Source: a virus. Taken from it: a stretch of 64,000 nucleotides of DNA. Positions 12,097 through 26,761 of the stretch are shown in pieces. A model generated the notes under the pieces. That model saw only the letters and a program-made list of their open reading frames with translations. It ran no database searches and was not told where the DNA came from. Made by a program: the position numbers and the translations under genes. Every line of letters starts with the position of its first letter. The first letter of the stretch is position 1. The stretch spans positions 61,080-125,079 of IMG/VR virus record IMGVR_UViG_3300033145_000274. One strand, written 5' to 3'.

Positions 12097-12124
12097 TTGA
12101 CAATCGGCCCGTACGGTGTATAAT
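12097..12124 (+). promoter_or_regulatory. sigma70-like promoter of Ro60 gene
   Basis: TTGACA-16nt-TATAAT. Confidence 0.8.
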
Positions 12125-12186
12125 TAAGGGCTTAGGAACCTTCCTTGTCGTGATTTTTTTTGACACGAATAACCGGAGACAAACCA

Positions 12187-13830
12187 ATGAACAAGAATCT
12201 ATTTCAGAATCGTGGTATTCAGCGTGGCGTTCCTACGACAGACAGCCTGAACGCAGCCGGTGGAGCCGCCTACCGTTTGGACGACAAGAGCGCCCTAGCG
12301 CAATACGCGGTCACAGGGACGTTTCAGGACACCTTTTATGTGGGTGCTCAGGACCATTTGCATAATGTCGAGGCATTGGCAGCAGGTTGCGAAGCTGAGT
12401 TTATTGCCAAGCTCGCCGTCTACGCACGCGAACGAGGTAAAATGAAGGACATGCCAGCGTATCTCTTGGCTGTCCTAGCCGCGCGTGGCGAAACCGACCT
12501 GGTAAAGCGTATCTTTTCGCGTGTGTGTAACAATAGCAAGGTGCTATTAGGTTTTGCTCGTATCATTCGTTCGGGCGCCACTGGTCGTAGTTCGTTCGGT
12601 ACTGCTATGAAGCGACTAATCCAAGATTGGATTACAGACAAGAGTAATAAAGGTCTGTATGTATCTAGTATTGGTCATAGCAATCCGTCAATGGCGGACC
12701 TTATCAAAATGGTACATCCACGACCACGGGATAATGAGCAGTCGGCGATGTTCTCCTACCTTTTGGGTAGGGAATGTGACCACGACCTGTTGCCCGAAGA
12801 TATTCAGATATTTGAAAGGCTAAAGCGTGGCGAAGCCATGCGCGGTGGCACGTCATTCGGACCATCCGACAAGATGCCCGACATTCCATTTCGAGCGCTT
12901 ACAAATTGCGACCTCAGCGCAGCACAATGGCGCGATATTGCTCTGAACATGCCCTGGAACACCCTGCGTCAATCCCTCAACCTTTTGAGTCGTCGCGGCG
13001 TATTTGATGACCTGGGTGTTGTGCGCAACTTGGCCGTGAAACTAGCCGATGAAGAAAACGTGATGCAATACAATGCTTTTCCGTTTGAACTACTGGCAAC
13101 GTGGAAGGCCACAAAGGACCAGGTACCGGTAGAGATTTCTAATGCTCTACAAGAAGCCATGGAAGTAGCTACGCGCAATGTGCCGAAGCTTCCTGGTGAA
13201 ACCCTGTTGGCAGTAGATGTTTCTGGCTCCATGTGTGGTGCTGCCATTACCGGACGTAGCGCCAAGCCATCCATCGTAACGGTTGTAGAATGTGCGTCTC
13301 TTATTGCGTGTGCCCTGCTACGCAACAACAAGTCGGCCTCGTTGATTGGATTTGACAGTGCTCGATATCCGTCTTATCGTCCCAAGGGTCGCTTGGCCGG
13401 CGAGGGTGGTATCTATGTTATGGACCACATCAATCCGTTTGATAGTGTGATGACTAACGTGTCAAAAATGAATCATAGTGGGGGTGGCACTGACTGTTCA
13501 CTACCATTTCAATACTTGTTGGCTAACACTCGTGCCGTAGACAACATCATCATATTGTCAGACTATGAGAGTTGGACTTCGACCTATCGTACCGCTGGTG
13601 GTGCCGCAAGCTGTGAACAATGGCATAGATATTCGGCCAATCACAAGAAAACCAAGTTGGCCTGTGTGGACCTACAACCACAAGATACAACGCAAGTGCC
13701 CGACCAACCAGGTCGTGTAATTAACATCGGCGGCTGGAATGACCCCATGTTTCGTGTATTGGGCGATTTCTTTAACCGTAACGACAACATTGACTTCGTG
13801 ACCGTGATTGAAGACAGTGTTGAACTTTAG
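12187..13830 (+). CDS. rsr: Ro60/Rsr TROVE-domain RNA-binding protein with C-terminal vWA domain
   Basis: NAAGGAAY, GTFQDTFY, MKDMPAYLLA, vWA MIDAS DVSGSM, GGGTDCSLP, IILSDYESW. Confidence 0.9.
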   Translation: MNKNLFQNRGIQRGVPTTDSLNAAGGAAYRLDDKSALAQYAVTGTFQDTFYVGAQDHLHNVEALAAGCEAEFIAKLAVYARERGKMKDMPAYLLAVLAARGETDLVKRIFSRVCNNSKVLLGFARIIRSGATGRSSFGTAMKRLIQDWITDKSNKGLYVSSIGHSNPSMADLIKMVHPRPRDNEQSAMFSYLLGRECDHDLLPEDIQIFERLKRGEAMRGGTSFGPSDKMPDIPFRALTNCDLSAAQWRDIALNMPWNTLRQSLNLLSRRGVFDDLGVVRNLAVKLADEENVMQYNAFPFELLATWKATKDQVPVEISNALQEAMEVATRNVPKLPGETLLAVDVSGSMCGAAITGRSAKPSIVTVVECASLIACALLRNNKSASLIGFDSARYPSYRPKGRLAGEGGIYVMDHINPFDSVMTNVSKMNHSGGGTDCSLPFQYLLANTRAVDNIIILSDYESWTSTYRTAGGAASCEQWHRYSANHKKTKLACVDLQPQDTTQVPDQPGRVINIGGWNDPMFRVLGDFFNRNDNIDFVTVIEDSVEL

Positions 13831-13880
13831 TTCTCGCTAATAAGCAAGAAAGGCATGTCTCGTTTCTTGCTTATTGAGAA
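13831..13880 (+). terminator. long hairpin after Ro60 (terminator or processing stem)
   Basis: AATAAGCAAGAAA/TTTCTTGCTTATT 13-bp perfect stem plus TTCTC/GAGAA. Confidence 0.55.
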
Positions 13881-13882
13881 CA

Positions 13883-14012
13883 AGGCAAATGCAGTAAAGC
13901 ATACATGATGAATGTGATGTTTTGGGGGTGTCGGACGCAAGTCCTAGTCCCCCGCGCTGGCTGATGACCTAAGTATGTAGCCGCAATTAGCGCTTTGCAT
14001 TATTTGTTGCCT
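13883..14012 (+). ncRNA. candidate Y RNA 1 (adjacent to Ro60)
   Basis: 5' AGGCAAATGCAGTAAAGCATACATG pairs with 3' GCTTTGCATTATTTGTTGCCT; same terminal architecture as three other loci. Confidence 0.7.
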
Positions 14013-14080
14013 AAAATAAATACCGAGGATGACTATTGTGGTCATCTACGAGACAGACAACAAGGGTCATCGGTCGGTTT

Positions 14081-14154
14081 CTACTAGGCACGCCTGGGCG
14101 TGATAGAAGAATAGCATATGCCTTTTATCAGGAGTTCGACTCTCCTCTAGTAGG
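14081..14154 (+). ncRNA. atypical tRNA-like RNA
   Basis: CTACTAG/CTAGTAG acceptor, CACGC-CTGG-GCGTG hairpin, GATAGAAG/CTTTTATC stem with 12-nt loop, AGGAG-TTCGACT-CTCCT T arm. Confidence 0.55.
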
Positions 14155-14167
14155 TTTGGAGTGATAC

Positions 14168-14845
14168 ATGATACGTCATTTTTCGTTTGCCGGAATGCAG
14201 CGCGTGGGTAACCATGCTATTATCAACTGGTGGCTTTCACATTTTGATGGTTATGTTTGTCGTAATAACATCTTGGGTTTATCTTGCAAAGACCAAAGTG
14301 CTCAATTATCCATCAAGGGTAAACCAGCAACACAGATACGATTAGACTCATGGGAAAACTATGACCCGGAACTCATTCAAATCTCTCCACGTAGCGAGCC
14401 GCTTATCATTCTTGTGCGTGACCCATATAATTGGTGGGCGTCCTGGTTTGGCTATACCATTCCCAATCCAGTAGTTCATAACATGTTCCGGCAAGATACT
14501 ATTCCAATGTATTTGGCCTACATAAAGTATATTCGTGAGCACCCCAATGCTTGTATCATTTTCAATCATTGGTTTTCCTCATCGGAATATCGTCGTGAAA
14601 TAGAATCGCACTATGAACTTGGTCCACCAGTAGACACATCCCTGAATTGTGTAACAACGGTTGGAGCAAGTACCTTTGATGCCATATATGAGTATCAAGG
14701 ACGTGCGCAGGACATGGCCGTGTTGACTCGTTACGAACAGGTTAGACACCAACCAGACTATTATGAACCACTGCGTCAATATCCTGAGTTGGCTGATATT
14801 GCCCGTGAGGTTTTTGATTTTGAGCCCCCAGCAGGATTACACTAA
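14168..14845 (+). CDS. putative sulfotransferase-like protein
   Basis: GMQRVGNHAI P-loop-like start; ILVRDPYNWWAS. Confidence 0.45.
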   Translation: MIRHFSFAGMQRVGNHAIINWWLSHFDGYVCRNNILGLSCKDQSAQLSIKGKPATQIRLDSWENYDPELIQISPRSEPLIILVRDPYNWWASWFGYTIPNPVVHNMFRQDTIPMYLAYIKYIREHPNACIIFNHWFSSSEYRREIESHYELGPPVDTSLNCVTTVGASTFDAIYEYQGRAQDMAVLTRYEQVRHQPDYYEPLRQYPELADIAREVFDFEPPAGLH

Positions 14846-15417
14846 TGGATATCGATGTATATGAAGCAATTGCTGAACGCGAGCAAGAAAATGAATATCG
14901 CTTACAAGTGCTCGAACAACTGTTGATAGCCGACATGGTGCTACCATTCAAGAGGTTGCACGAAGACGCAAGGCTACCGTTCAAATCTGGCGAGTTGGAA
15001 GCATGTTATGATATGACATGTGTAGAAGATGATAGTTTTCGGTCATTTGATTGTTATATGGGCCTAGACCACTGCGTGCGGGAGAACTTCAAACCTCTTA
15101 AACCTGGTCAGAGCCACATATTTCACACCGGTGTAGCCTGTGCCATACCACAGGGTCGCGTGTTGTTCCTTTGGGACCGCAGTGGCATGGGAGCCAAACG
15201 AAACATTCACAGACTGGCCGGTGTAATTGATTGCACATACCGTGGTGAGATAATGGTGTGTTTAACCAACCTAAGTAAGGATGTTCAGATAATTGAAGCA
15301 GGAGATAAAATTATCCAAGGTCACCTTGCACTAGTGTTACCAGGTACACCAAAGTGGGTAGTTGAATTGCCTAGCTCTTATCGTGGAGAAGCTGGCTTTG
15401 GTTCAACAGGAAAATGA
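14845..15417 (+). CDS. dut: dUTPase
   Basis: DRSGMG, GVIDCTYRGEI, RGEAGFGSTG. Confidence 0.92.
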   Translation: MDIDVYEAIAEREQENEYRLQVLEQLLIADMVLPFKRLHEDARLPFKSGELEACYDMTCVEDDSFRSFDCYMGLDHCVRENFKPLKPGQSHIFHTGVACAIPQGRVLFLWDRSGMGAKRNIHRLAGVIDCTYRGEIMVCLTNLSKDVQIIEAGDKIIQGHLALVLPGTPKWVVELPSSYRGEAGFGSTGK

Positions 15418-15427
15418 GGAGAATCTA

Positions 15428-16075
15428 ATGGCGCAACCAGGTCTACCACCACCAGCAATACATAGTCGTTTGTGGGGCATGAGAGCGTATCTAATAGGCG
15501 CAATGGACCGTGCGCCCGATGCAGGTGTCGAGTGGAGACGACGTATTACGCCCTTCCTGGCTAAGCTGGGCGTGGTTGTATTAGACCCGACCGACAAACC
15601 CATTGATATTGGTCTGGAGCGCAGCGAGGACCGTGAGTATCGTCAGAATCTCAAAGCGCTTGGGTGTTACGATGAATTGTCCAAAGAAATCAGGGCATTG
15701 CGCGTAGTTGACCTGGGCATGGTAGACATGAGTGATTTTCTTATAGTCCACATCGACACAGATATTCATGCGTGTGGTACGTATGAAGAAATCTCATGGG
15801 CAAATCGTATGAAAAACCCCATACTTGTTCATTGTGAGCAAGGAAAGGATGGCGTGTCGGACTGGTTATATGGCATGATTCCACATCAACATATGTTTTC
15901 CACATGGGTAGACATGTGTAAGTATTTATGGGAAGTACATACGGCACCGGCAGTAGAACACTACAAGCGATGGATGTTTTTCAATTATCAACAAATGGTT
16001 CCCCAAGTAACACCTGATGAATCACGTGCTTATCGGTGGGAATGGGACTCTTTAGCAAAGGAATTAGACAGATGA
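15428..16075 (+). CDS. nucleoside 2-deoxyribosyltransferase-like protein
   Basis: YLIGAMD, MVDMSDFLIV, CGTYEEISWA. Confidence 0.65.
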   Translation: MAQPGLPPPAIHSRLWGMRAYLIGAMDRAPDAGVEWRRRITPFLAKLGVVVLDPTDKPIDIGLERSEDREYRQNLKALGCYDELSKEIRALRVVDLGMVDMSDFLIVHIDTDIHACGTYEEISWANRMKNPILVHCEQGKDGVSDWLYGMIPHQHMFSTWVDMCKYLWEVHTAPAVEHYKRWMFFNYQQMVPQVTPDESRAYRWEWDSLAKELDR

Positions 16076-16263
16076 GTTTATTCGCATTTTTCTCACCTGG
16101 ACCTGCGGAAATTGCTATTATTTGTGTCATTGGCGTGATACTGTTCGGTACGCAATTGCCGAAGATAGCGCGTTCACTTGGACAATCCATTCCGGCCTTC
16201 AAAAATGGCCTAAAAGACATAAATGACGAAGTGAAAGACATACAGCAAGAACTCAAAACTTAA
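16072..16263 (+). CDS. tatA: twin-arginine translocase subunit TatA/E
   Basis: PGPAEIAIICVIGVILFG-TQLPKIARSLGQSIPAFKNGL: TM helix, FG hinge, amphipathic helix. Confidence 0.9.
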   Translation: MSLFAFFSPGPAEIAIICVIGVILFGTQLPKIARSLGQSIPAFKNGLKDINDEVKDIQQELKT

Positions 16264-16316
16264 TTGCATCGGTGTATATTAGAGTAGACTCATACACCAC
16301 TTAGGGGGAGCATATC

Positions 16317-16838
16317 GTGCGATTATTCATTTGTGTTATCTTGTTGTTGTTAAGCAGCGTCAACATTGCGTTTGGGGTAAATTATCCTGAAGGCACGGTT
16401 ATAGTATGGGAAAACGGCACGTATCTAAACGCCGTGCAACGCCAAACCGGTAGTAATAAGACACATGTTGGTATCATTTTGTATGATGGAGTACAGCCGT
16501 GGGTATATGAGGCATCGCGCCCTGACGTTCACCGCTACACATTCCAGGACTATGTCAAACGTGTTGATATACTTCATAAACAGCTACCTAAGCTACGCAT
16601 ACATTTTTTGACGCCTTTCACACCATATCATCCTACTCAGATAGTAGCGATGAAACGCTATGCACATGCTCAATTAGGGCGTCAATTTGGACTCAAGAGT
16701 TATATGCTGGGACGACCAATGGCAACACTTCATTGTTGTGAATACATTGGTAATATCCTGGCGCAGACAGGACGTTTTAGGACTATCGGACCAAGGGAAA
16801 CCCCAAAGACCATTTACGAAAAGGCCAGGAAACTATGA
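16317..16838 (+). CDS. permuted papain-like (YaeF/YiiX) amidase-like protein, secreted
   Basis: signal peptide; THVGI before LHCCEYI (His-before-Cys order). Confidence 0.65.
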   Translation: MRLFICVILLLLSSVNIAFGVNYPEGTVIVWENGTYLNAVQRQTGSNKTHVGIILYDGVQPWVYEASRPDVHRYTFQDYVKRVDILHKQLPKLRIHFLTPFTPYHPTQIVAMKRYAHAQLGRQFGLKSYMLGRPMATLHCCEYIGNILAQTGRFRTIGPRETPKTIYEKARKL

Positions 16839-17353
16839 CACCGCAACCACCAGCAAAAGTGTATGAATATCTATATCCCATGCCATCAATAGTCACAGAT
16901 ATAGTGGTGACTGTACTGTCTGATGATAAAGATGGAATCGAGCTATTGTTGATAGAACGCAAAAATGAACCATGGAAAGGTTGCTTGGCATTACCGGGTG
17001 GCTTTGTCGAGCCCAACGAACTCGTCATGGACGCCGCCAAGCGCGAATTGTTGGAAGAAACAGGTGTGGTGGCTCGGGATTTGGCATTCGTAGGATGGTA
17101 TGATGAACCCGACCGTGACCCACGAGACCGTATTATTTCCATGGCTTTTCTCATGTGTTGTGGTCATAACAAGCCAGAAGCTAAAGGCATGGATGATGTT
17201 TGTAATGCACAATGGGTGACAAAAGAACAGTTTGAAAATCTACCAGCAGAGCGCATAGCGTGTGACCATGCTACTGTTATTGGTGACGCAACGGGTTGGG
17301 GCAAATCACGTAGTGCAGTAAGACTATCTTGGGGTGGGGGTCATCAAACATGA
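16835..17353 (+). CDS. Nudix hydrolase (ADP-ribose pyrophosphatase-like)
   Basis: LPGGFVEPNE..AAKRELLEETG Nudix box; RDPRDR. Confidence 0.9.
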   Translation: MTPQPPAKVYEYLYPMPSIVTDIVVTVLSDDKDGIELLLIERKNEPWKGCLALPGGFVEPNELVMDAAKRELLEETGVVARDLAFVGWYDEPDRDPRDRIISMAFLMCCGHNKPEAKGMDDVCNAQWVTKEQFENLPAERIACDHATVIGDATGWGKSRSAVRLSWGGGHQT

Positions 17354-17736
17354 TATCACTAGAAAACGCCGCTCAACGAGTTGCCACGAACGATGACTCC
17401 GAAGTGTTCGTTGACCCACTGACACTTATGCTTATTTGCTCCATTCTTTCCACTGTTTTTAATGCCTTGCGCATGTGGTGTCAATGGAAGCAGAATCAAA
17501 AAGCCGATGGAAATACCATCAAAGAAGTATGTGCAAATCCACCCCTACGAATAAGACGTAGATTACACAGAGTTGTGCGCCAGCAAATGGGCGATGAGCA
17601 ATATAGGCGAGACGGAGATAGGGTGGTGACTAACATTCTAAAAGCTGGTGCTGATGCCTTTCCTGCTGAGCTTGAGTATTTGGCAAACCAGAATGTCTAT
17701 GTTAATCAGTGGGGTGAAACAGAACAGGAGATTTGA
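17350..17736 (+). CDS. hypothetical protein
   Basis: ORF with VDPLTLMLI hydrophobic segment. Confidence 0.55.
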   Translation: MISLENAAQRVATNDDSEVFVDPLTLMLICSILSTVFNALRMWCQWKQNQKADGNTIKEVCANPPLRIRRRLHRVVRQQMGDEQYRRDGDRVVTNILKAGADAFPAELEYLANQNVYVNQWGETEQEI

Positions 17737-17737
17737 C

Positions 17738-17932
17738 ATGGAAGCCGAAACCAGGGCTCGCAAGGGTGAGGTTATCAAAACTGTGATAGGTGGGGGTCAT
17801 TGCTGTATTGAACCACCACTGACCAAGTACCACAGGGTAGTTGATGAACGTGGACACGGTGGGTTTAACGGCAGAAAGACGGTTGTTGAGACAGATTATG
17901 ATGATTATAAACAAAATGGAGTATCACGATAA
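17738..17932 (+). CDS. hypothetical protein
   Basis: short ORF with upstream ggag. Confidence 0.45.
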   Translation: MEAETRARKGEVIKTVIGGGHCCIEPPLTKYHRVVDERGHGGFNGRKTVVETDYDDYKQNGVSR

Positions 17933-17937
17933 TTGAA

Positions 17938-18280
17938 GGGCCTGTCATGGTTTCGACAGGATATTGGAGTTTGTGATTGCGTGTCGTGGTTTACCGAATG
18001 GCCACGAAAAAAATCGGTAAAAAACCTTTAATTGGCAATAACATTGTCGAAGGCTTCGCAGTAGCCGGGTTCGCCTCTCAAAAGGCCCCCAACGCTGCCC
18101 CTCAGTTCAGCTTTGTTTAACGACAAGTTATCTGAGGCGACGGCTTAATCTTGTGCCATAACAAGAGCATATCATATTTAGAGACAGTTTTGTTTGTTGT
18201 ACAGCTTAACAACAAACTACACACGTAGACGTTGCTTAATAAGGTATCGCTGGAAATGGGTTCGACTCCCATCAGGTCCA
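17938..18280 (+). ncRNA. ssrA: tmRNA
   Basis: GGGCCTG/CAGGTCC-A acceptor with G3.U70, 5' GGTTTCGACAGG, T arm GGGTTCGACTCCC, internal tag ORF 18034-18120. Confidence 0.9.
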
Positions 18281-18315
18281 CTTATTTCATACTATTGAAA
18301 ATTCACATGTGAAAC

Positions 18316-18345
18316 TGGACAATGGGATAGTTTTCCGTGTATAAT
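18316..18345 (+). promoter_or_regulatory. sigma70-like promoter
   Basis: TGGACA-18nt-TATAAT. Confidence 0.55.
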
Positions 18346-18389
18346 AGTATGGGTAGACGTTAATTTTCAATACATTAGGGGAGAGAGAA

Positions 18390-20198: not shown

Positions 20199-20199
20199 G

Positions 20200-20258
20200 C
20201 TGAGATAGCGTTGCCCAAGGGCGGTCTCAGGGTTTCCTGAAATCGCTCTTTTTTTTTG
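20200..20258 (+). terminator. intrinsic terminator
   Basis: GC-rich stems followed by a long T run. Confidence 0.65.
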
Positions 20259-20259
20259 G

Positions 20260-20287
20260 TTGACAATAAATTTTCTTGGTGTATAAT
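20260..20287 (+). promoter_or_regulatory. sigma70-like promoter of RNA cluster
   Basis: TTGACA-16nt-TATAAT. Confidence 0.8.
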
Positions 20288-20293
20288 ACAAGT

Positions 20294-20356
20294 GAGGCGA
20301 ATGAATTAGCGCTTACATGTCCAAAAATGAACGGCGCTGAAAATCCTTGTCGCTTC
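20294..20356 (+). ncRNA. candidate minimal Y RNA 2
   Basis: GAGGCGAATGAATTAGCGCTTACATGTCC...GGCGCTGAAAATCCTTGTCGCTTC; begins 6-7 nt after -10 box. Confidence 0.65.
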
Positions 20357-20362
20357 TTGTGT

Positions 20363-20448
20363 TCCGTGGGGGCAACTGTTGGAAGTTGCGGGCGTCTGTT
20401 AAACGTCTATGGGTAACACCTACGCTGGTTCGATTCCAGCCTGCGGAG
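20363..20448 (+). tRNA. tRNA-Asn(GTT), long variable arm
   Basis: TCCGTGG/CTGCGGA-G, anticodon arm GGCGT-CTGTTAA-ACGTC, 16-nt variable region. Confidence 0.85.
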
Positions 20449-20489
20449 CTTATGTGATTTACTTAGGATTCTTGTGAAGGAAAAGTGCT

Positions 20490-20831
20490 TTGAGCAAAAA
20501 CAAAGAACGTCAGTTTAAGTTGCTTCGTCTTGTTAGCGGCAGTACGGTATTAGCCAATGTGTTATATCAACGTGAAAACACAGGACAAGAATACGAGTTG
20601 ACGAAGCCGATGGAAGTAATTGTCATGCCTGACCGGTCGGGCCAAACGATGATTACTCTCATGGATTTTATTCCCGCAAGCCGACAAGAGGTTATTCGTA
20701 TTGGTAAGGCCCACGTAATGTGTTCCGCCGTACCCGATGATAAAGTAGCGGCTTTGTATCAACAGGCCACTAATCCGAGTGCCGTGATAGCACCGCCTGA
20801 GCAAAAGCTGGCGTTGCCGCCAGGAGTATAA
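20490..20831 (+). CDS. hypothetical phage protein
   Basis: TTG start with gaagga RBS; LLRLVSGSTVLA. Confidence 0.6.
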   Translation: MSKNKERQFKLLRLVSGSTVLANVLYQRENTGQEYELTKPMEVIVMPDRSGQTMITLMDFIPASRQEVIRIGKAHVMCSAVPDDKVAALYQQATNPSAVIAPPEQKLALPPGV

Positions 20832-20834
20832 TAT

Positions 20835-20908
20835 AGGGCTGAGGGCTTGATGGTAAGCCGCCTGGTTTGGGACCAGGAGTTGTGTGGGTTCGACTCCCAC
20901 CTGCCCTA
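20835..20908 (+). tRNA. tRNA-Pro(TGG)
   Basis: CCTGG-TTTGGGA-CCAGG; GTGGG-TTCGACT-CCCAC. Confidence 0.9.
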
Positions 20909-20919
20909 CTGACAATCAT

Positions 20920-21006
20920 AGCGCAGGGTTCTCTGTTGGTAATGGGTGCCCAGACTTTCAATCTGGGGGTCGTAAGGCCACGCGGGTTCAATTCCCGTCT
21001 GCGTTA
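20920..21006 (+). tRNA. tRNA-Glu(TTC), long variable arm
   Basis: CCAGA-CTTTCAA-TCTGG; variable hairpin GGTC-GTAA-GGCC. Confidence 0.85.
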
Positions 21007-21014
21007 CTTATAAT

Positions 21015-21089
21015 GGGGGATGGTTCACTGTTGGGAGTGTTGCTTGGTTTGCAACCAAGTTGTCGTGGGTTCGATTCCCATATCCTCCA
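21015..21089 (+). tRNA. tRNA-Ala(TGC)
   Basis: G3.U70; CTTGG-TTTGCAA-CCAAG. Confidence 0.92.
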
Positions 21090-21091
21090 CT

Positions 21092-21178
21092 GCGTACGAG
21101 TCGGATATTAGTTGGCCGAGCCTGACTGTGAATCAGGAGGCTATTAAAGCCATGCGGGTGCAATTCCCGTCGTTCGCC
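21092..21178 (+). tRNA. tRNA-His(GTG), long variable arm
   Basis: CCTGA-CTGTGAA-TCAGG; variable hairpin GGCT-ATTAA-AGCC; C73; genomic -1 base is T. Confidence 0.85.
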
Positions 21179-21336
21179 CTTGAGGTTCTGTGTCATAGGA
21201 GACCCGCGCACCCTCTTATTACCAGTCGATACAACATGGCGTGCGGAATAGCCGGATACGTTCGTATGGTCTTGTGTTGTTTAGGTTAAAGCGACTTATA
21301 ATCGTGGCGAGCCTCAAATTTATAAGGATTTATTTT

Positions 21337-21600
21337 ATGAGTCTTTTTGGACATTGGGAATGCCCCAACTGTGGAACGACTTGGACTGGTAGTATAGGTT
21401 GGCAACCCCCAACAGATGAAGAAGAGTTAAAGAACATGCTACACAATATGTGTGGTTGTAGTGGACCAATCGAGGGTGCTCAAACACCTGTTATGAGTGC
21501 ATCTGTGATGAATGTTAAGCTTTCAGACAAGCGATTGGCAATGAATCTTGATATTGATAAACCACGCGAAGGTGACGCCGAAAGCGCCGGGCGCAACTAA
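21337..21600 (+). CDS. hypothetical zinc-ribbon protein
   Basis: HWECPNCG..CGC; 3' end overlaps tRNA-Trp. Confidence 0.5.
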   Translation: MSLFGHWECPNCGTTWTGSIGWQPPTDEEELKNMLHNMCGCSGPIEGAQTPVMSASVMNVKLSDKRLAMNLDIDKPREGDAESAGRN

Positions 21601-21643
21601 CTCTCCAAAGGTTAGATAAGGGGTTCGACTCCCTCGTTGCCTG
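21570..21643 (+). tRNA. tRNA-Trp(CCA), atypical D arm
   Basis: CTAACT-CTCCAAA-GGTTAG; T loop TTCGACT; AGGTGAC/GTTGCCT-G. Confidence 0.7.
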
Positions 21644-21752
21644 CTAGAAGGTAGGACATCATGTTGCAAATATCTCCAGAAGAAAAAGAACTAAAACTAG
21701 AGCAATAAGTAGTCGTTTCAGCCAGGACTCAGAAAACTTTTTGGAGACACGC

Positions 21753-22241
21753 ATGGACTTTGTTCTGGGATTTGATGGTGGCAACGCCCAAAATCTTGCA
21801 TGTTATGGCTATGTCATCTGGACCGTCTCCGACAAAGAAATAACTACAGTGGGCGAGGGCTACGGCAAATGTCACGACGACCTACAAACTAGCAATGTGG
21901 CTGAGTGGTCAGCGCTCATGTATGGTTTAATGGCGGTGTTACCGCAGATTGTAACCATAAAACGCGAACACAAGATTGCGAAGCTGTTCTTGCACGGCGA
22001 CAGCCAGTTGGTCCTGCGACAATTGACAGGAGAATACGGCGTGACCCAACCTCACCTAAAGTTTTACTATGGTAAGTGTCGAAAAATAGTACAGAGGATT
22101 GAGCAAGAAGGTGTTGAGGTCATAACCCATTGGGAGGGGCGCGACAATAACGATGGACCAGACAAACTTACACATTTAGCCCGTAAGAGGTATCTTGATG
22201 TGCGACGAAGAAAGCGCGGTACTAAATCTGTCACCAGGTAA
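21753..22241 (+). CDS. rnhA: ribonuclease HI-like protein
   Basis: FDGG, TSNVAEWSAL, GDSQLV, NDGPDKL. Confidence 0.85.
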   Translation: MDFVLGFDGGNAQNLACYGYVIWTVSDKEITTVGEGYGKCHDDLQTSNVAEWSALMYGLMAVLPQIVTIKREHKIAKLFLHGDSQLVLRQLTGEYGVTQPHLKFYYGKCRKIVQRIEQEGVEVITHWEGRDNNDGPDKLTHLARKRYLDVRRRKRGTKSVTR

Positions 22242-22407
22242 TAATCTGTCTGAGTTGGTAAACGCCAAGCCAATTGATGCACTGAATATACCTGATAACT
22301 TTACCGGTGAGATTCGTGTGATAGACAAGGAAGTGACTTTTGTTTATGAATTTGAAAAACACCAACTGAAATCTATTACGGTAAAATCTACCGTACAGGA
22401 GAAATGA
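22195..22407 (+). CDS. hypothetical protein
   Basis: short ORF. Confidence 0.4.
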   Translation: MMCDEESAVLNLSPGNNLSELVNAKPIDALNIPDNFTGEIRVIDKEVTFVYEFEKHQLKSITVKSTVQEK

Positions 22408-22584
22408 GATGTTTGTTGTATTTTCAAGCAACGATGAAATAATTATAACCACTCCAGAGTTGGAAACACAAGTCCTAGACGATTTTTTCATAAATGGTGG
22501 TAGGGTTATGGAAGATTACGACCGAGAGGAAGTAGACGAAGTTGGAGTGGAAGTTTCCAGTCGTGTGATGTGGGAATAATACGT

Positions 22585-22667
22585 GGGAGGGTTGAGCAGG
22601 TGGTGTGCTTAGCGGACTGTAAATCCGTGCCCTTTTGGGATTGCAGGTTCGATTCCTGTCTCTCCCA
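22585..22667 (+). tRNA. tRNA-Tyr(GTA)
   Basis: GCGGA-CTGTAAA-TCCGT; long variable arm as expected. Confidence 0.9.
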
Positions 22668-22800
22668 CTTGTGTTCAGTCAGTTTGCGCTTATATAGTCT
22701 GGTTAGTTACTGACGAAAAATAAAGAACAGCGCCAGCCGTGGTCAATCACTCCACGAAAATCAGTGATGGTGGCTCGGTTCGACCCCCACGCCACAACTT

Positions 22801-22871
22801 GCGCCTGTGATGTAGTGGTAGCCTATCAGCTTGCCATGCTGAATGTGTGGATTCGATTTCCACCAGGCGCT
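22801..22871 (+). tRNA. tRNA-Gly(GCC)
   Basis: GCGCCTG/CAGGCGC-T; TCAGC-TTGCCAT-GCTGA. Confidence 0.9.
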
Positions 22872-22905
22872 CTTAAATATGACGTTATAACTCAAAGGAA
22901 TTACC

Positions 22906-23160
22906 ATGAAGAAAAAGAGTATGAGTATTGGTACGCTGTCCATGTTGATTGGCTTTGCCCTGTGTATTATTAAAGCCAGCGGACTTGGATTAGTCACATG
23001 GCCATGGTGGGTTGTTACCGCGCCTGTGTGGGGACCATTTGCTATCTTTGCCATCTTCATGCTGTTTGTGTATATGTTGGTGGGCACCCGCATAAGTGTA
23101 GATGCCGCAGCAGAAATAACATTTGATGCCGATGGTAAACCAAACAACCAGGGCAAATAA
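22906..23160 (+). CDS. small membrane protein
   Basis: two hydrophobic segments, WPWWVVTAPVW. Confidence 0.7.
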   Translation: MKKKSMSIGTLSMLIGFALCIIKASGLGLVTWPWWVVTAPVWGPFAIFAIFMLFVYMLVGTRISVDAAAEITFDADGKPNNQGK

Positions 23161-23164
23161 TGCT

Positions 23165-24394
23165 ATGAATGACATTCTTTGTATCATACCCTACTATGAT
23201 TTTCATGGCAATGAACGCCTACCAACGAATCATTATACGGGTGTGAAATCACTACAAGAACAGGGTGTTGATACGTTGGCTATTGAGGCCGTATATGATA
23301 ATCAGCCACGACTATCGGGTGATAACACGGTACAAATTGATGTACAACATCCATTGTGGTACAAGGAAAACCTGATTAACTTAGGCATACAAGAGTTTCG
23401 TGACCAGTATAAATACATCGGCTGGATTGACTCGGGGTTGTTGCTTAATGATGGGTGGGTAGAGTTAGCCCTGGACAAATTACACCACGTAGACCTCATA
23501 CAGTGTTTTCGGTCGGGCAATTGGTTCAATGAACACGGCATGATTGAATACATAACAGATGGTTATATTTATACACAAGTAATGGATGTGAGATTTCCCA
23601 ATCGTCCTTCTCCGGGAGGCGCGTGGGTTGCACGGTCCAGTGTATTATCGGATAACTTTTTGTATGACCGCAACATTGTGGGTGGTGGAGATTCCCTGCT
23701 GGCATATACAGTGTTACGTAACGGAGCAGTACATTCAGAACTTAAACACTACACACAGGAACACGGCGAACACTATTTAGAATGGCACGAACAACTATCA
23801 CAACGCAACTTAACATGTTCATACATTCGAGGTAGCTTTACGCACCTGTGGCACGCCACCCTAAAACAACGACAACACATACAACGACATCAAATTCTCA
23901 AACAGTATAACTACAATCCAGTGCGAGACCTGTTATACGACCCAAGTGGTCTGCTAACTTACAGTCCCGACGTAAATACTGACTTGCCCGATGCAATACA
24001 TAAGTATTTGGTGCATAGAACTAAATTCACACCACAAAACGCCACATCATCACGACCAGCGTCCGTTAGGTTTCTTTGTAACATAGACCTGCCTGTATTA
24101 CACAAGGGCCATGAGCGCATAGTACATTTTAATGCTGGTGATACACATCCAGCAATCAGAATTGAAGTGCATGATGGTAACCAAAATGATATTTACAAAC
24201 CAGATGGTAGTGTAATTTTGGATGTTGCAGATGACATGTTTGAAAACGGGTGCAATCGTGTTCTTGTAACACATGGTGTGCCCGTACGCCAACCAATGCC
24301 AGTTACATCAAAGATAGACGACTTTAGAACCGGACCGCCTACCAATCCCACACGAATGTCCTATGCTATGGGCGGGAAACCACACACAAAATGA
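23165..24394 (+). CDS. glycosyltransferase-like protein (paralog of 43282-44256)
   Basis: LWYKENLIN, WIDSGL, PGGAWVAR, NIVGGGDSLL, HLWH shared with paralog. Confidence 0.6.
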   Translation: MNDILCIIPYYDFHGNERLPTNHYTGVKSLQEQGVDTLAIEAVYDNQPRLSGDNTVQIDVQHPLWYKENLINLGIQEFRDQYKYIGWIDSGLLLNDGWVELALDKLHHVDLIQCFRSGNWFNEHGMIEYITDGYIYTQVMDVRFPNRPSPGGAWVARSSVLSDNFLYDRNIVGGGDSLLAYTVLRNGAVHSELKHYTQEHGEHYLEWHEQLSQRNLTCSYIRGSFTHLWHATLKQRQHIQRHQILKQYNYNPVRDLLYDPSGLLTYSPDVNTDLPDAIHKYLVHRTKFTPQNATSSRPASVRFLCNIDLPVLHKGHERIVHFNAGDTHPAIRIEVHDGNQNDIYKPDGSVILDVADDMFENGCNRVLVTHGVPVRQPMPVTSKIDDFRTGPPTNPTRMSYAMGGKPHTK

Positions 24395-24897
24395 TATTTA
24401 CCACACAGCGAAAACTAGTTGAATTAGCCGAGAAGGATATGTATTGGCATCCGTGGAACATACGCTGGGAATATATGCTGGTCACCATGGCATGGCTACA
24501 AGATATTCAACCTACGACTATCCTAGAAGCAGGCACCAATGGACTTACAGTGTGTGAGGATAGTGATACGATTGGTTTAGGCAAAGCAGATACAATTCAC
24601 GACCTGCGATGTACACCATGGCCATTTGAAGACAAACAATACGATGTATTCATTGCATTACAGGTATGGGAACATCTTACATATAAGCAGGAAAGTGCAT
24701 TCACCGAGGCTAGTCGCATTGCTAAACACATCATCATGAGCTTTCCGTATATGTGGGACTACGCCAATGGACATTGTCATAATGGCATAGACGAAGACAC
24801 AATCAATGAGTGGGCCGGTAGCCAACCCGACAAAGCACTATTGGTCAATGATTCTTATACACGTTCACGCCTGGTATGTTATTGGAACAAGACATGA
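24391..24897 (+). CDS. SAM-dependent methyltransferase-like protein
   Basis: ILEAGTNG, PFEDKQYDVFIALQVWEHL. Confidence 0.65.
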   Translation: MIFTTQRKLVELAEKDMYWHPWNIRWEYMLVTMAWLQDIQPTTILEAGTNGLTVCEDSDTIGLGKADTIHDLRCTPWPFEDKQYDVFIALQVWEHLTYKQESAFTEASRIAKHIIMSFPYMWDYANGHCHNGIDEDTINEWAGSQPDKALLVNDSYTRSRLVCYWNKT

Positions 24898-25298
24898 AAG
24901 TCATCATAGCGGGATGCCGTTGGATTGAAAATTACGACATAGTCTGTGAAGCCATTGAGGACAGCGGTTTTACGGTCACGGAAGTGGTGTCGGGCACAGC
25001 CAATGGAGTGGATACGTTGGGGGAAAACTGGGCAGAGGCACACGATATTCCTATTAAGCACTTTCCTGCTAATTGGAAAAACCTCAAGGTTAAGGGCGCT
25101 GTCATCCGAAAGAATAGGTATGGGAAGTACAACGCCGCCGCCGGACATGTGCGCAACGAACAAATGGCAGAGTATGGTGATGCTCTGGTGGCTATTTGGG
25201 ACCAAAAATCACGAGGTACCGCCAATATGATTGAGTTGGCACGTAAACATGGATTGAAAGTACACATTTTTCTAGTAGAAGCAAAGGATGAACGATAA
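24894..25298 (+). CDS. SLOG/YspA-like (DUF2493-type) protein
   Basis: VIIAGCR, VVSGTANGVD, AAGHVRNEQMA, SRGTANM. Confidence 0.8.
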   Translation: MKVIIAGCRWIENYDIVCEAIEDSGFTVTEVVSGTANGVDTLGENWAEAHDIPIKHFPANWKNLKVKGAVIRKNRYGKYNAAAGHVRNEQMAEYGDALVAIWDQKSRGTANMIELARKHGLKVHIFLVEAKDER

Positions 25299-25361
25299 TG
25301 AGAACTCATTCTTACATTCTCCATAGGTTTAGTATGCTTTAATATAGCACTACTTTAACCT

Positions 25362-25982
25362 ATGGAGTTGCAAATGCGTGACAAAACCAAACACCCAACT
25401 TATCGACGTGAGCCTCGTACGACCCAGGAACGTCGGGCTAACGGCAAGCGCAGCGAATGGGGACGTGGCAGGCGCAATCAAAGCAATTTGGTTGATGCTT
25501 ATAGTGACCGTCCGGTGACCATCCAGAAGACCTGGAAGGTTAAGCGTCGTCACCAATACCGTGAGCGTAGCCGTGGACAGCAGCACACAATCTTCCTGCC
25601 GAATGGCAGCGGGCCAAGTTGGCGCTTCTGGATAAACATCTGGGAGTTGGAACAGTGGTTCAATAACCACGACATTCCGTGCTGTGTTGAAAAGGTGGAG
25701 AAAATTGAGACGCGAATTGAAACACATCGACGTGAGTACAGGGCGATTGGATGGGAATCGTATACCTATGTCCGCCCCGTGCGTCCGCGTAAGAAGGGCG
25801 CAAAGAAAACCCTGACCCGATATGAGACCAAGACCTCATGGCGTAATGTCTGCGGTTGGGTGAAGATAAAGCTACCTAAGCCACGTGTGAGTCATTGGTC
25901 TACCTTGATAGGCTACAACGTAACGTGGTGGAGTGGCAAGGACATTGGTATTGAACGTGTTTTGCAACGTAGTGTTAGGTAA
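25362..25982 (+). CDS. basic hypothetical phage protein
   Basis: Arg-rich ORF of 206 aa. Confidence 0.6.
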   Translation: MELQMRDKTKHPTYRREPRTTQERRANGKRSEWGRGRRNQSNLVDAYSDRPVTIQKTWKVKRRHQYRERSRGQQHTIFLPNGSGPSWRFWINIWELEQWFNNHDIPCCVEKVEKIETRIETHRREYRAIGWESYTYVRPVRPRKKGAKKTLTRYETKTSWRNVCGWVKIKLPKPRVSHWSTLIGYNVTWWSGKDIGIERVLQRSVR

Positions 25983-26211
25983 AGTGGTCATTTGAATATC
26001 TTTATTCAACAAATTTTTGGACTTGATTACACACGTGGGAATTGGGACGATTAGTAGGCCCCTTAATCAGAAATGCTCACTGCCGTTGGCGCTGAGTTCC
26101 CACGTTTTTGATACACTCAGCCCTAGTTGGCAAGGGTGCGGCGAGCGCTAGTCGCTAAGTGGTGATGGTTGACAACGAGCCATAATCGTTGATGGGATTT
26201 GCCATCCCTAT

Positions 26212-26287
26212 GGAGGTCTGGTGTAGCTGGTGCGCACGGTAGTCTGAAGAACTACAGGACTTGACGGTTCGATTCCGTGGGCCTCCA
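26212..26287 (+). tRNA. tRNA-Phe(GAA)
   Basis: GTAGT-CTGAAGA-ACTAC; GGAGGTC/GGCCTCC-A. Confidence 0.88.
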
Positions 26288-26289
26288 CT

Positions 26290-26412
26290 GGTGAATGCAG
26301 TGAGACTTACATGCATTTTAAGCCGTAGTTGCGAGTGCAAGACTCGTCCACGCCTAGCGTGGTAGCTTAATTAGTAAAGCAACGCCAATTTGTCTTACGT
26401 ACCTTGTCACCA
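26290..26412 (+). ncRNA. YrlA-type Y RNA 3 (circularly permuted tRNA mimic)
   Basis: order: T arm GCGAG-TGCAAGA-CTCGT, closed acceptor CCACGC-CTA-GCGTGG, D arm TAGCTTAATTAGTAAAGC; closed by GGTGA/TCACC stem; T8 follows. Confidence 0.85.
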
Positions 26413-26421
26413 TTTTTTTTA

Positions 26422-26494
26422 CCTGCCTAGCCCATCCGGTGGTGGGGGCTGGCTGTCAACCAGTTTGTGGCGAGTTCGACTCTCGTAGGTGGGG
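26422..26494 (+). tRNA. tRNA-Asp(GTC)
   Basis: GCTGG-CTGTCAA-CCAGT; G73. Confidence 0.88.
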
Positions 26495-26554
26495 CTAAAC
26501 GGTCGGGCGACACGCTATTAAGCATCGCCCAATTGCTAGGGCCGTTTTTTAGAC

Positions 26555-26582
26555 TTGACATTTCTCATTTTGGTCGTAAAAT
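26555..26582 (+). promoter_or_regulatory. sigma70-like promoter upstream of Y RNA 4
   Basis: TTGACA-16nt-TAAAAT. Confidence 0.7.
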
Positions 26583-26629
26583 AAAAGTGAGTGGTGGAGG
26601 TGGGGAGCGAAAGCTCCCGTCTGTATCTT

Positions 26630-26761
26630 GGCGAATGTAATAAGACTTACATGTCCCGTTGTATGTTGCGAGTTCAAATCTCGTCCGTGCCGCTTTGTGG
26701 TGCGGTAGCTCAATTGGCAGAGCGACGACCCTAAAAAACGGTCTTATGTTGTTAGTCGCCA
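26630..26761 (+). ncRNA. YrlA-type Y RNA 4 (circularly permuted tRNA mimic)
   Basis: GGCGAATG 5' motif; T arm GCGAG-TTCAAAT-CTCGT, closed acceptor CCGTGCCGC-TTT-GTGGTGCGG, D arm TAGCTCAATTGGCAGAGC; GGCGA/TCGCC closure. Confidence 0.9.

What the first reader, a model, noticed from the sequence alone, without database searches (positions are those of the whole stretch)
12187..26761. Phage Ro60 with a dispersed family of four Y RNAs sharing a covarying Ro-binding stem but different cargo domains
Seen in sequence: loci 13883, 20294, 26290 and 26630 all begin GG(C/T)(G/A)AATG-N2-6/7-bp helix-(T/A)TACATG. The outer helix covaries (GGCAA/TTGCC, GGCGA/TCGCT, GGTGA/TCACC, GGCGA/TCGCC), and so does the inner helix (TAAAGC/GCTTTG, TTAGCGC/GCGCTGA, GTGAGAC/GTCTTAC, ATAAGAC/GTCTTAT). 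Established: GGCGAATG fits the GNCGAAN0-1G motif described for the Rsr-binding stem of bacterial Y RNAs, and Y RNAs normally lie next to rsr. Unusual here: only one copy is adjacent; the others sit 6.5-13 kb away inside tRNA operons, and the distal domains differ (multi-hairpin, none, two permuted tRNAs). Inference: a modular Ro60 adaptor system tethering one ring protein to different partners (nuclease, ligase, tRNA-modifying enzymes) during infection.
Basis: partly seen in the sequence, partly recalled or inferred. Interest (0 to 1): 0.92.

Follow-up and report, generated by a model that had tools for sequence, protein, structure and literature searches.

The report
Phage Ro60 with four Y RNAs
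An uncultured large phage carries a gene for the RNA-binding ring protein Ro60 and four small "Y RNA" genes sharing one conserved docking stem, three of them set among its tRNA genes. This is a clear new example of a known protein-RNA partnership, and the layout turns out to be common in such phages.

Summary
The 24-nt motif occurs four times on the + strand (13884, 20296, 26290, 26630), against 0.06 expected. In all four copies, 13 of 13 base pairs form in two helices, and 7 of those pairs show compensatory changes.

The ORF at 12187-13830 is a Ro60/Rsr homologue (TROVE plus Ro60-vWA domains).

- **Y3 and Y4** are full-length matches to Rfam YrlA at 58 and 45 bits, below the curated cut-off of 69.
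- **Y1** (multi-hairpin) and **Y2** (a 61-nt hairpin) lack that module but keep the docking stem.

A covariance model built from the four stems found 87 further sites in 160 other Ro60 loci. All 87 lie on the rsr strand.

Orthologues of Y1 sit right after rsr. Orthologues of Y2 sit between a consensus promoter and tRNA-Asn in related phages.

The "unusual" dispersal is not unusual. Phage rsr genes generally sit inside co-oriented tRNA clusters, and Y modules often lie more than 4 kb from rsr or abut tRNAs.

Phage Ro60 with several Y RNAs is already published (mycobacteriophages, Thermus phage phiLo). This scan has also noted the theme many times on other DNA.

Verdict: a new member of a known kind. 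The adaptor idea is the standard model and remains untested here.

The parts
12097..12124 (+). Consensus sigma-70-type promoter (TTGACA-16-TATAAT) upstream of rsr
   Evidence: 12 of 12 hexamer matches; sequence read.
12187..13830 (+). Ro60/Rsr homologue. 547 aa from the ATG at 12187; the ORF is open from a TTG at 12160.
   Evidence: Pfam vWA_Ro60 49.4 bits (cut-off 27.7) and TROVE 26 bits (cut-off 23). PDB matches: D. radiodurans Rsr 2NVO at E 1.3e-12, phage phiLo Ro60 9KOP at 1.9e-12, and RNA-binding protein RO60 (9NEN) and 60-kDa SS-A/Ro (1YVP). 1558 homologues, many named 60 kDa SS-A/Ro.
13839..13875 (+). 13-bp perfect inverted repeat between the rsr stop and Y1, with no U tract. Likely a processing or stabilising hairpin, not a terminator.
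   Evidence: Read from the sequence. An equivalent hairpin follows rsr in L122.
13883..14012 (+). Y1: 130-nt Y-like RNA. It has the docking stem (AGGCAA/UUGCCU and GUAAAGC/GCUUUGC) and a multi-hairpin interior, with no tRNA-like module.
   Evidence: Orthologues lie directly after rsr in L122:9467, L123:11853, L126:4085 and L011:11629, with compensatory changes. There is no Rfam match.
14080..14155 (+). tRNA-shaped element: 8-bp acceptor-type stem, D-like hairpin, canonical T arm (GGAGUUCGACUCUCC) and an irregular long 'anticodon' arm without a 7-nt loop.
   Evidence: Fold. Conserved with a covarying acceptor stem after Y1 in L122, L123 and L126. Not called by ARAGORN or Rfam.
20260..20287 (+). 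Consensus promoter (TTGACA-16-TATAAT) that places the transcription start at the base of Y2
   Evidence: 12 of 12 matches. The same promoter-Y2-tRNA-Asn order occurs in L122 and L123.
20294..20356 (+). Y2: minimal 61-63-nt Y RNA. It is the docking stem closed by an A-rich loop, and it ends 6 nt before tRNA-Asn (20363).
   Evidence: R1 score 67.8 bits. Orthologues at L122:17238-17300 (51.1 bits) and L123:19453-19518 (32.9 bits).
26289..26412 (+). Y3: YrlA-type Y RNA. It starts 1-2 nt after tRNA-Phe (26212-26288) and is followed by U8 and the next tRNA (26422-26495).
   Evidence: Rfam YrlA RF02553, 58.2 bits, E 3.4e-11 over 16 kb, model positions 1-114 of 114. Variant T loop UGCAAGA, and a D arm without GG.
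26555..26582 (+). Near-consensus promoter (TTGACA-16-TAAAAT) for Y4, preceded by a compound terminator with a T6 run after the tRNA
   Evidence: 11 of 12 matches; sequence.
26629..26761 (+). Y4: YrlA-type Y RNA with a canonical T loop (UUCAAAU), a 9-bp acceptor-like hairpin and a canonical D arm (GCUCAAUUGGCAGAGC). It is followed directly by an ORF.
   Evidence: Rfam YrlA 45.5 bits, E 1.5e-7 over 16 kb, model positions 1-114 of 114.

Best explanation
The region encodes a phage Ro60 (Rsr) ring protein and four Y RNA genes that are its likely RNA partners. All four RNAs close with the same two-helix, internally looped docking module: 5' GGYRAAUG-N2-7 bp-WUACAUG, and on the 3' side 7 bp-N8-9 ending UUG/UAG-6 bp. 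Ro60 is expected to bind this module on its outer surface (inferred).

Y3 and Y4 carry the YrlA tRNA-like module (T arm, acceptor-like hairpin, D arm). Y1 carries a different multi-hairpin interior. Y2 is the docking module alone.

Y1 is probably co-transcribed with rsr. Y2 is the 5' leader of a tRNA operon that starts at a consensus promoter. Y3 lies between two tRNAs, and Y4 has its own promoter. The ends of Y2 and Y3 would therefore be made by the tRNA-processing enzymes RNase P and RNase Z (inferred from the 1-6-nt spacing).

By analogy with characterised systems, the Y RNAs would gate Ro60's cavity and tether it to host exoribonuclease (PNPase) or to tRNA-recognising enzymes. The minimal Y2 would act as a gate only. 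In a phage carrying about 30 tRNAs, a tmRNA, an RNA ligase and a CCA-adding-type enzyme, the likely purpose is RNA or tRNA quality control, or counter-defence, during infection. That purpose is inference and is not shown.
For: - **Ro60 identity:** Pfam TROVE and vWA_Ro60 above their cut-offs, and PDB Rsr, phiLo Ro60 and animal Ro60 (9NEN, 1YVP) matches.
- **Motif:** 4 copies against 0.06 expected.
- **Pairing:** 52 of 52 pair cells form, and 7 of 13 pairs are compensatory.
- **Y3 and Y4:** full-length YrlA alignments that include both the stem and the tRNA-like domain. ARAGORN calls no tRNA there, so they are not the tandem-tRNA artefact that Chen 2014 warns about.
- **Link to rsr:** model R1, built only from the four stems, finds 34 + 53 = 87 sites at E<=0.01 in 2.37 Mb of other Ro60 loci. 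All 87 are on the rsr strand.
- **Family-level covariation:** in 30 distinct sequences of A8, 98.2% of cells pair and 12 of 13 pairs change on both sides.
- **Orthologues:** Y1 and Y2 keep their positions in relatives with 52-66% Ro60 identity, with compensatory changes.
- **Promoters:** perfect consensus promoters precede rsr and Y2, and a near-perfect one precedes Y4.
- **Literature:** Y RNAs tether Rsr to PNPase, and each studied species has at least 2 Y RNAs, one of them tRNA-like (PMC4201824). Phage phiLo Ro60 binds two phage Y-like RNAs and host PNPase (PMC12135203).
Against: - There is no transcript, binding or processing datum. Everything is computational.
- Y3 and Y4 score below the Rfam gathering threshold (58.2 and 45.5 against 69).
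- Y1 departs from GNCGAA (GGCAAAUG; orthologues have GGCAGAUG or AGCAGAUG), so its affinity for Ro60 is the least certain.
- A8 was aligned to the model, which inflates pairing counts.
- The four window copies are paralogues, so part of their similarity is common descent.
- No PNPase or RtcB is encoded in the contig, which is 69% complete. Any tethered partner would have to come from the host.
Confidence: 0.78

Rival explanations
1. The shared stem is a tRNA-operon processing or leader element, for example an RNase III/E site or a transcript-stabilising hairpin. On this reading it works independently of Ro60, and its closeness to rsr is only shared residence in the phage tRNA cluster.
For: Three of the four copies sit in or at the head of tRNA transcription units, 1-6 nt from tRNA ends. 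In the survey, 33 of 176 modules abut tRNAs. Phage rsr genes themselves usually lie in tRNA clusters, so co-orientation with rsr could partly reflect co-orientation with tRNAs.
Against: The 5' and 3' strands match the Ro-binding part of the curated YrlA model (AUGC, CUAC, cUuGuCGCC). Many R1 hits lie directly next to rsr in loci without nearby tRNAs, for example about 100 nt upstream of the rsr start in L027, L030, L085, L179, L196 and L198. In the survey, 86 of 176 modules are within 500 nt of rsr. Y1 abuts rsr, not a tRNA.
Confidence: 0.1
2. Only Y3 and Y4 (and perhaps Y2) are real Ro60 partners. Y1 would be a diverged or decaying copy, or an rsr 3'-UTR structure that no longer binds Ro60.
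For: Y1 has A in place of the G of GNCGAA. Its orthologues change the next position as well (GGCAGAUG, AGCAGAUG). It has no Rfam match. Its MFE fold offers alternative pairings.
Against: Y1 orthologues are kept directly after rsr in five related loci. Both helices are maintained by compensatory changes, with 6 of 13 pairs changed on both sides. AUGC, AUACAU and UUUG are conserved. The Y1 orthologue in L011 scores 36.9 bits with R1. A decaying copy would not keep this structure.
Confidence: 0.1
3. The four loci are copies of a repeated DNA element, such as a protein-binding site or a recombination or mobile repeat. On this reading they are not RNA genes.
For: A 24-nt motif is repeated four times on one strand.
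Against: The conserved parts are split into 5' and 3' halves separated by 20-95 nt of unrelated sequence. They covary as RNA helices, including G-U pairs that would not pair on the opposite strand. All are on the transcribed strand downstream of promoters or tRNAs. Y3 and Y4 match an RNA covariance model.
Confidence: 0.02

Closest known systems
YrlA (Rfam RF02553), the tRNA-like Y RNA of bacterial and mycobacteriophage Rsr/Ro60 (Chen et al. 2014, PMC4201824)
   Same: Y3 and Y4 align over all 114 model positions. They share the terminal bulged stem with the GNCGAAUG-type motif, T arm, acceptor-like hairpin and D arm. They lie on the same strand as rsr.
   Different: Their scores are below the curated cut-off (58.2 and 45.5 against 69). 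They lie 12.5-12.8 kb from rsr, whereas Chen et al. reported only hits within 4 kb. They are embedded in a tRNA cluster, and Y3 abuts tRNAs on both sides. Y3 has a non-canonical T loop and D loop.
Second, non-tRNA-like bacterial Y RNAs: S. Typhimurium and M. smegmatis YrlB, D. radiodurans Yrn2 (PMC4201824)
   Same: One Ro60 is served by several Y RNAs that share the binding motif but differ elsewhere. At least one is a simple long hairpin, as Y2 is.
   Different: The published hairpin Y RNAs have a small pyrimidine-rich loop, whereas the Y2 loop is A-rich (conserved AAARAAUGA). There is no detectable sequence homology. Y2 is a tRNA-operon leader and is not next to rsr.
Thermus phage phiLo Ro60 with Yrl1 and Yrl2 (PMC12135203, 2025)
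   Same: It is a phage-encoded Ro60 with more than one phage-encoded Y-like RNA. Binding and a ternary complex with host PNPase were shown experimentally. That phage also encodes no PNPase of its own.
   Different: Both phiLo RNAs lie immediately upstream of the Ro60 gene. The present phage has four, three of them distant and linked to tRNAs. The proteins are only remotely similar (E 1.9e-12).
Metazoan Y RNAs (for example human Y1, Y3, Y4, Y5) with Ro60
   Same: They follow the same design principle: a conserved Ro60-binding stem formed by the 5' and 3' ends, plus a variable effector domain, with several paralogous RNAs per genome.
   Different: They have a different binding-motif sequence, are transcribed by Pol III and have no tRNA-like module. 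This part of the comparison rests on general knowledge, not a test made here.
Felix O1-like phage Bas63 gp130, a Ro60-like protein upstream of the tRNA genes (PhageMaP preprint, PMC11482910)
   Same: A Ro60-like gene sits at a phage tRNA cluster. The authors suggest that some of the 'tRNA genes' may be Y RNAs.
   Different: gp130 was shown genetically to counter the ppl defence system. No such datum exists for this phage, and homology between the two proteins was not tested here.

Membership tests
Ro60/Rsr (TROVE) proteins | TROVE (HEAT-repeat ring) domain | tested here: met
   PF05731, 26 bits against a cut-off of 23. The alignment to Rsr 2NVO spans residues 30-475.
Ro60/Rsr (TROVE) proteins | C-terminal Ro60-type vWA domain | tested here: met
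   PF25045, 49.4 bits against a cut-off of 27.7, residues 348-537.
Ro60/Rsr (TROVE) proteins | Binds Y RNA on the outer ring surface | not testable with these tools
   This needs EMSA, RIP or a structure.
YrlA (RF02553) | Terminal stem formed by the 5' and 3' ends, carrying GNCGAAN0-1G on the 5' strand | tested here: met
   Y2 and Y4 have GGCGAAUG, an exact fit. Y3 has GGUGAAUG and Y1 has GGCAAAUG, each with a compensating change in the partner strand.
YrlA (RF02553) | tRNA-like domain: T arm, acceptor-like hairpin, D arm | tested here: met
   Met for Y3 and Y4 (CM alignment). NOT met for Y1 and Y2 (no Rfam hit; folds), so Y1 and Y2 are not YrlA members.
YrlA (RF02553) | Score at or above Rfam's gathering threshold (69 bits) | tested here: not met
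   58.2 and 45.5 bits. None of 50 other Ro60-phage records reaches it either; the best is 61.9.
YrlA (RF02553) | Encoded within about 4 kb of rsr on the same strand (operational criterion of Chen 2014) | tested here: not met
   The strand is the same, but Y3 and Y4 are 12.5 and 12.8 kb from rsr. Only Y1 is adjacent (53 nt).
YrlA (RF02553) | Bound and stabilised by Rsr; substrate of tRNA enzymes | not testable with these tools
   This requires experiments.
YrlB/Yrn2-type hairpin Y RNAs | [quoted passage not shown] | tested here: not met
   Y2 is a hairpin with the motif, but its loop is A-rich. It works like one, but membership is not shown.

The most novel reading that the evidence does not exclude
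In a large group of uncultured, tRNA-rich phages, Ro60 and a graded set of Y RNAs (minimal 55-70-nt 'gate-only' forms and 110-160-nt tRNA-like forms) would be built into the phage tRNA operons. The Y RNAs would be excised by RNase P and RNase Z in fixed proportion to the phage tRNAs. The resulting particles would act as a phage-run tRNA surveillance or counter-defence device, for example against host anticodon nucleases or nuclease-based defence. That would give Ro60-Y RNA a defined physiological role in viruses.
Probability: 0.25. Interest if true: 0.7.

Novelty: new member of a known kind. Interest (0 to 1): 0.4.

Why it matters
What Ro60-Y RNA particles do in bacteria and phages is still poorly understood. 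This locus is a compact, well-delimited case: one Ro60 gene and four Y RNAs of three architectures, each with a definable promoter or tRNA-processing context.

The survey made here has two further consequences:
- The published "within 4 kb of rsr" search rule misses many phage Y RNAs.
- Minimal Y RNAs, and Y RNAs fused to tRNA transcription units, are frequent in large phages.

That gives a concrete, testable link between Ro60 and tRNA metabolism during infection. It does not reveal a new kind of system.

Tried and rejected
- **Rfam at gathering threshold:** no Y RNA found. The hits appeared only with E-value thresholds.
- **Phage GenBank collection:** megablast of the region gave no match.
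- **The search for related loci with the single Ro60 protein in IMG/VR:** nothing found. An alignment query was needed.
- **The 15-base Y motif scanned in IMG/VR:** one hit only (L121). The descriptor found no matching 3' strand there, so I judged it chance.
- **MAFFT on the full-length four RNAs, and on a first set of shortened versions:** the 3' strands were misaligned. Equal-length shortened versions were used instead.
- **Model R1:** it cannot bridge long internal domains, so it mis-scores Y1, Y3 and Y4 in the window. It serves only as a detector of short and medium forms.
- **The look-up of encoding contigs:** The closest relatives (Ro60 72-75% identical, P0002-P0005) could not be fetched.
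- **Metagenome records L122, L123 and L126:** they could not be searched beyond the fetched stretch, so close orthologues of Y3 and Y4 could not be examined.
- **Tandem-tRNA false positive for Y3 and Y4:** rejected, because no tRNA is called there and the stem is part of the alignment.
- **RtcB and PNPase in the contig:** absent.
- **Review papers PMC10870794 and PMC6047535:** not held.

Full report
**What the window is.** It is the last 64 kb (61080-125079) of a 125,079-bp IMG/VR viral contig, estimated 69% complete. It carries 30 tRNA genes and a tmRNA, all on the + strand. Nothing similar is in the GenBank phage collection.

**The protein.** The ORF at 12187-13830 (open from a TTG at 12160) matches Pfam vWA_Ro60 (49.4 bits) and TROVE (26 bits), both above their curated cut-offs. 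It also matches these solved structures:
- D. radiodurans Rsr (2NVO, E 1.3e-12)
- Thermus phage phiLo Ro60 (9KOP, 1.9e-12)
- RNA-binding protein RO60 (9NEN) and 60-kDa SS-A/Ro (1YVP)

It has more than 1500 homologues, many on contigs of 150-180 kb. A 12/12 consensus promoter lies at 12097-12124. The gene is a phage Ro60/Rsr.

**The observation.** The motif GGYRAATG-N9-WTACATG occurs four times, all on the + strand, at 13884, 20296, 26290 and 26630. Shuffles expect 0.06. There is no other copy in the whole contig.

Each 5' half has a matching 3' half 20-95 nt away. Together they form a 6-bp outer helix, an asymmetric internal loop (5' AUGNA; 3' 8-9 nt ending UUG or UAG) and a 7-bp inner helix followed by WUACAUG.

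On an alignment of the four stem modules, all 52 pair cells are standard pairs. Seven of 13 pairs change on both sides, and no shuffle or register shift comes close.

**What the four RNAs are.**

- *Y3 (26289-26412) and Y4 (26629-26761).* These are full-length matches to Rfam YrlA (RF02553), at 58.2 and 45.5 bits and E 3.4e-11 and 1.5e-7 over 16 kb. The alignment covers the terminal stem and the whole tRNA-like domain: T arm, acceptor-like hairpin, D arm. So the "permuted tRNAs" are the defining YrlA module (Chen et al. 2014, PMC4201824).
  - Chen et al. warn that tandem tRNAs can mimic YrlA. That does not apply here, because ARAGORN calls no tRNA at either place and the stem is part of the match.
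  - Both scores are below the gathering score of 69. So are all YrlA hits in 50 other Ro60-phage records, where the best is 61.9. These phage RNAs are divergent relatives.
  - Y4 has canonical T and D loops. Y3 has variant ones.
- *Y1 (13883-14012).* It has the stem but a different multi-hairpin interior.
- *Y2 (20294-20356).* It is the stem closed by a short A-rich loop.
- Neither Y1 nor Y2 matches any Rfam family.

**Is the stem tied to Ro60?** I built a covariance model (R1) from the four stems alone. I searched it against 160 other Ro60 loci, fetched with a Ro60 alignment from IMG/VR and from metagenomes. It found 34 and 53 sites at E<=0.01 in 2.37 Mb searched on both strands. All 87 are on the strand of rsr, and many lie within a few hundred bases of it.

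In the 30 distinct IMG/VR sequences, 98.2% of cells pair and 12 of 13 pairs show changes on both sides. That alignment is fitted to the model, so the number is generous.

A separate Python descriptor gave 216 hits on the rsr strand, 26 on the other strand, and 14 in reversed-sequence controls.

**Orthologues.** The nearest relatives I could fetch have 52-66% Ro60 identity.

| Element | Where found in relatives |
|---|---|
| Y1 | Directly after rsr in L122, L123, L125/L126 and L011/L127. The A-U pair at the top of the outer helix becomes G-C (GGCAGAUG...CUGCC). |
| Y2 | L122:17238 and L123:19453, each between a TTGACA-16-TATAAT promoter and tRNA-Asn, as in the window. The helices show compensatory changes and the loop motif is conserved. 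|
| Further Y RNA | L122, 100 nt with a T arm, between tRNA-His and tRNA-Trp. |
| YrlA-type hit | The complete 172,878-bp relative G001, 16.7 kb from rsr inside its tRNA cluster. |

Close orthologues of Y3 and Y4 could not be examined.

**Transcription and processing context.**
- Y1 follows rsr after a 13-bp hairpin that has no U tract, so it is probably co-transcribed with rsr.
- Y2 begins where the consensus promoter at 20260-20287 should start transcription, and it ends 6 nt before tRNA-Asn. RNase P would release it.
- Y3 starts 1-2 nt after tRNA-Phe and is followed by U8 and the next tRNA.
- Y4 has its own near-consensus promoter (26555-26582) after a terminator.
- These processing steps are inferred from spacing and are not shown.

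**Is the arrangement unusual?** No.
- Among 67 IMG/VR rsr loci of at least 15 kb, 50 have a tRNA within 10 kb and 44 have at least three. Of their 687 tRNAs, 685 are on the rsr strand.
- Of 176 descriptor hits on the rsr strand, 72 are shorter than 75 nt (minimal forms like Y2) and 66 are 110-160 nt (YrlA size). Twenty-eight lie more than 4 kb from rsr even within the 10-kb flanks, and 33 lie within 50 nt of a same-strand tRNA.
- I combined the coordinates by hand. About half of the records with a strong full-length YrlA hit have it 4.6-23 kb from rsr (for example G025, G035, G037, G044, G029, G007, G018).
- Some loci carry four to six tandem Y modules (L175, L173, L181).

**Comparison with the literature.**
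- Chen et al. found YrlA in 254 bacteria and 22 phages, but reported only hits within 4 kb of rsr. [quoted passage not shown]
- Phage phiLo Ro60 binds two phage-encoded Y-like RNAs and forms a complex with host PNPase (PMC12135203).
- Jumbo-phage TROVE proteins have been grouped with RNA repair (PMC7824862).
- A preprint shows that a Ro60-like protein of phage Bas63, sitting upstream of its tRNA genes, counters a host defence. It guesses that some of those "tRNAs" are Y RNAs (PMC11482910).
- I found no paper that describes Y RNAs fused into phage tRNA operons, or minimal Y RNAs, as a general pattern.
- This scan has noted phage Y-like RNAs in tRNA clusters many times on other DNA.

**Mechanism.** The shared stem is the expected Ro60 docking site. 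The interiors differ, which fits the established gate-and-tether model. On that model:
- tRNA-like modules engage tRNA-recognising proteins or PNPase;
- a stem-only RNA can only occupy Ro60.

The contig encodes an RNA ligase (window about 3018-3572) and a CCA-adding-type nucleotidyltransferase (about 47851-48222). It encodes no PNPase or RtcB, so a nuclease partner would have to come from the host. The purpose (tRNA quality control or counter-defence) is inference.

**Verdict.** The adaptor hypothesis is plausible but is the standard model and is untested here. The claimed oddity is a common layout. This is a new member of a known kind, of moderate interest.

Noticed in passing
window 14080-14155 (also L122:9654-9727, L123, L126): A tRNA-shaped RNA follows Y1 and an intervening hairpin (14022-14078). 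It has an 8-bp acceptor-type stem, a canonical T arm and an irregular long arm where the anticodon arm would be. It is conserved with a covarying acceptor stem in three relatives, and neither ARAGORN nor Rfam calls it. It could be a further Ro60 partner or a separate tRNA mimic.
   Followed up: partly
window 17938-18283; L122:14760-15119; L123:17285-17615; L126:8124-8475: A phage-encoded tmRNA (113 bits) lies between rsr and the first tRNA operon and is conserved in relatives. The tag peptides of the window and L123 are nearly identical, while those of L122 and L126 differ.
   Followed up: no
window 26422-26495, 20363-20449, 20920-21007, 21092-21179: Several tRNAs are structurally odd and score best with the tRNA-Sec model. 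The tRNA after Y3 has a 9-bp acceptor stem, and its anticodon loop CUGUCAA can be read as GUC (Asp) instead of ARAGORN's CAA (Leu). The Asn, Glu and His tRNAs carry long variable arms.
   Followed up: no
L027:9415-9600, L085:9772-9957, L030:9779-9959, L179, L196, L198 (about 50-230 nt upstream of the rsr start): In many other phages, one or two minimal Y hairpins (55-65 nt) lie in the 5' leader of rsr itself. This suggests co-transcription or autoregulation of Ro60 by its own Y RNA.
   Followed up: partly
window 20320-20335; L122:17266-17280; L123:19480-19495: The loop of Y2 keeps an A-rich motif (AAARAAUGA) in all three orthologues even though the stems have changed. This is a possible contact or base-pairing site of unknown target.
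   Followed up: no
window about 3018-3572 and about 47851-48222: An RNA ligase domain (PF09414, 92 bits) and a PolyA_pol/CCA-adding-type nucleotidyltransferase (PF01743, 79 bits) are encoded in the same contig. Together with about 30 tRNAs and the tmRNA, they point to a phage RNA-repair or tRNA-maintenance toolkit.
   Followed up: partly
window 25983-26211: A 229-nt non-coding stretch upstream of tRNA-Phe holds several hairpins and a long-range stem followed by a T run. No convincing sigma-70 promoter for the tRNA-Phe-Y3-tRNA unit was found.
   Followed up: no
window 21741-22241, 24876-25298, 16835-17353: Small genes interspersed with the tRNAs include an RNase H-like protein (RVT_3), a SLOG/YspA-family protein and a NUDIX hydrolase.
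   Followed up: no
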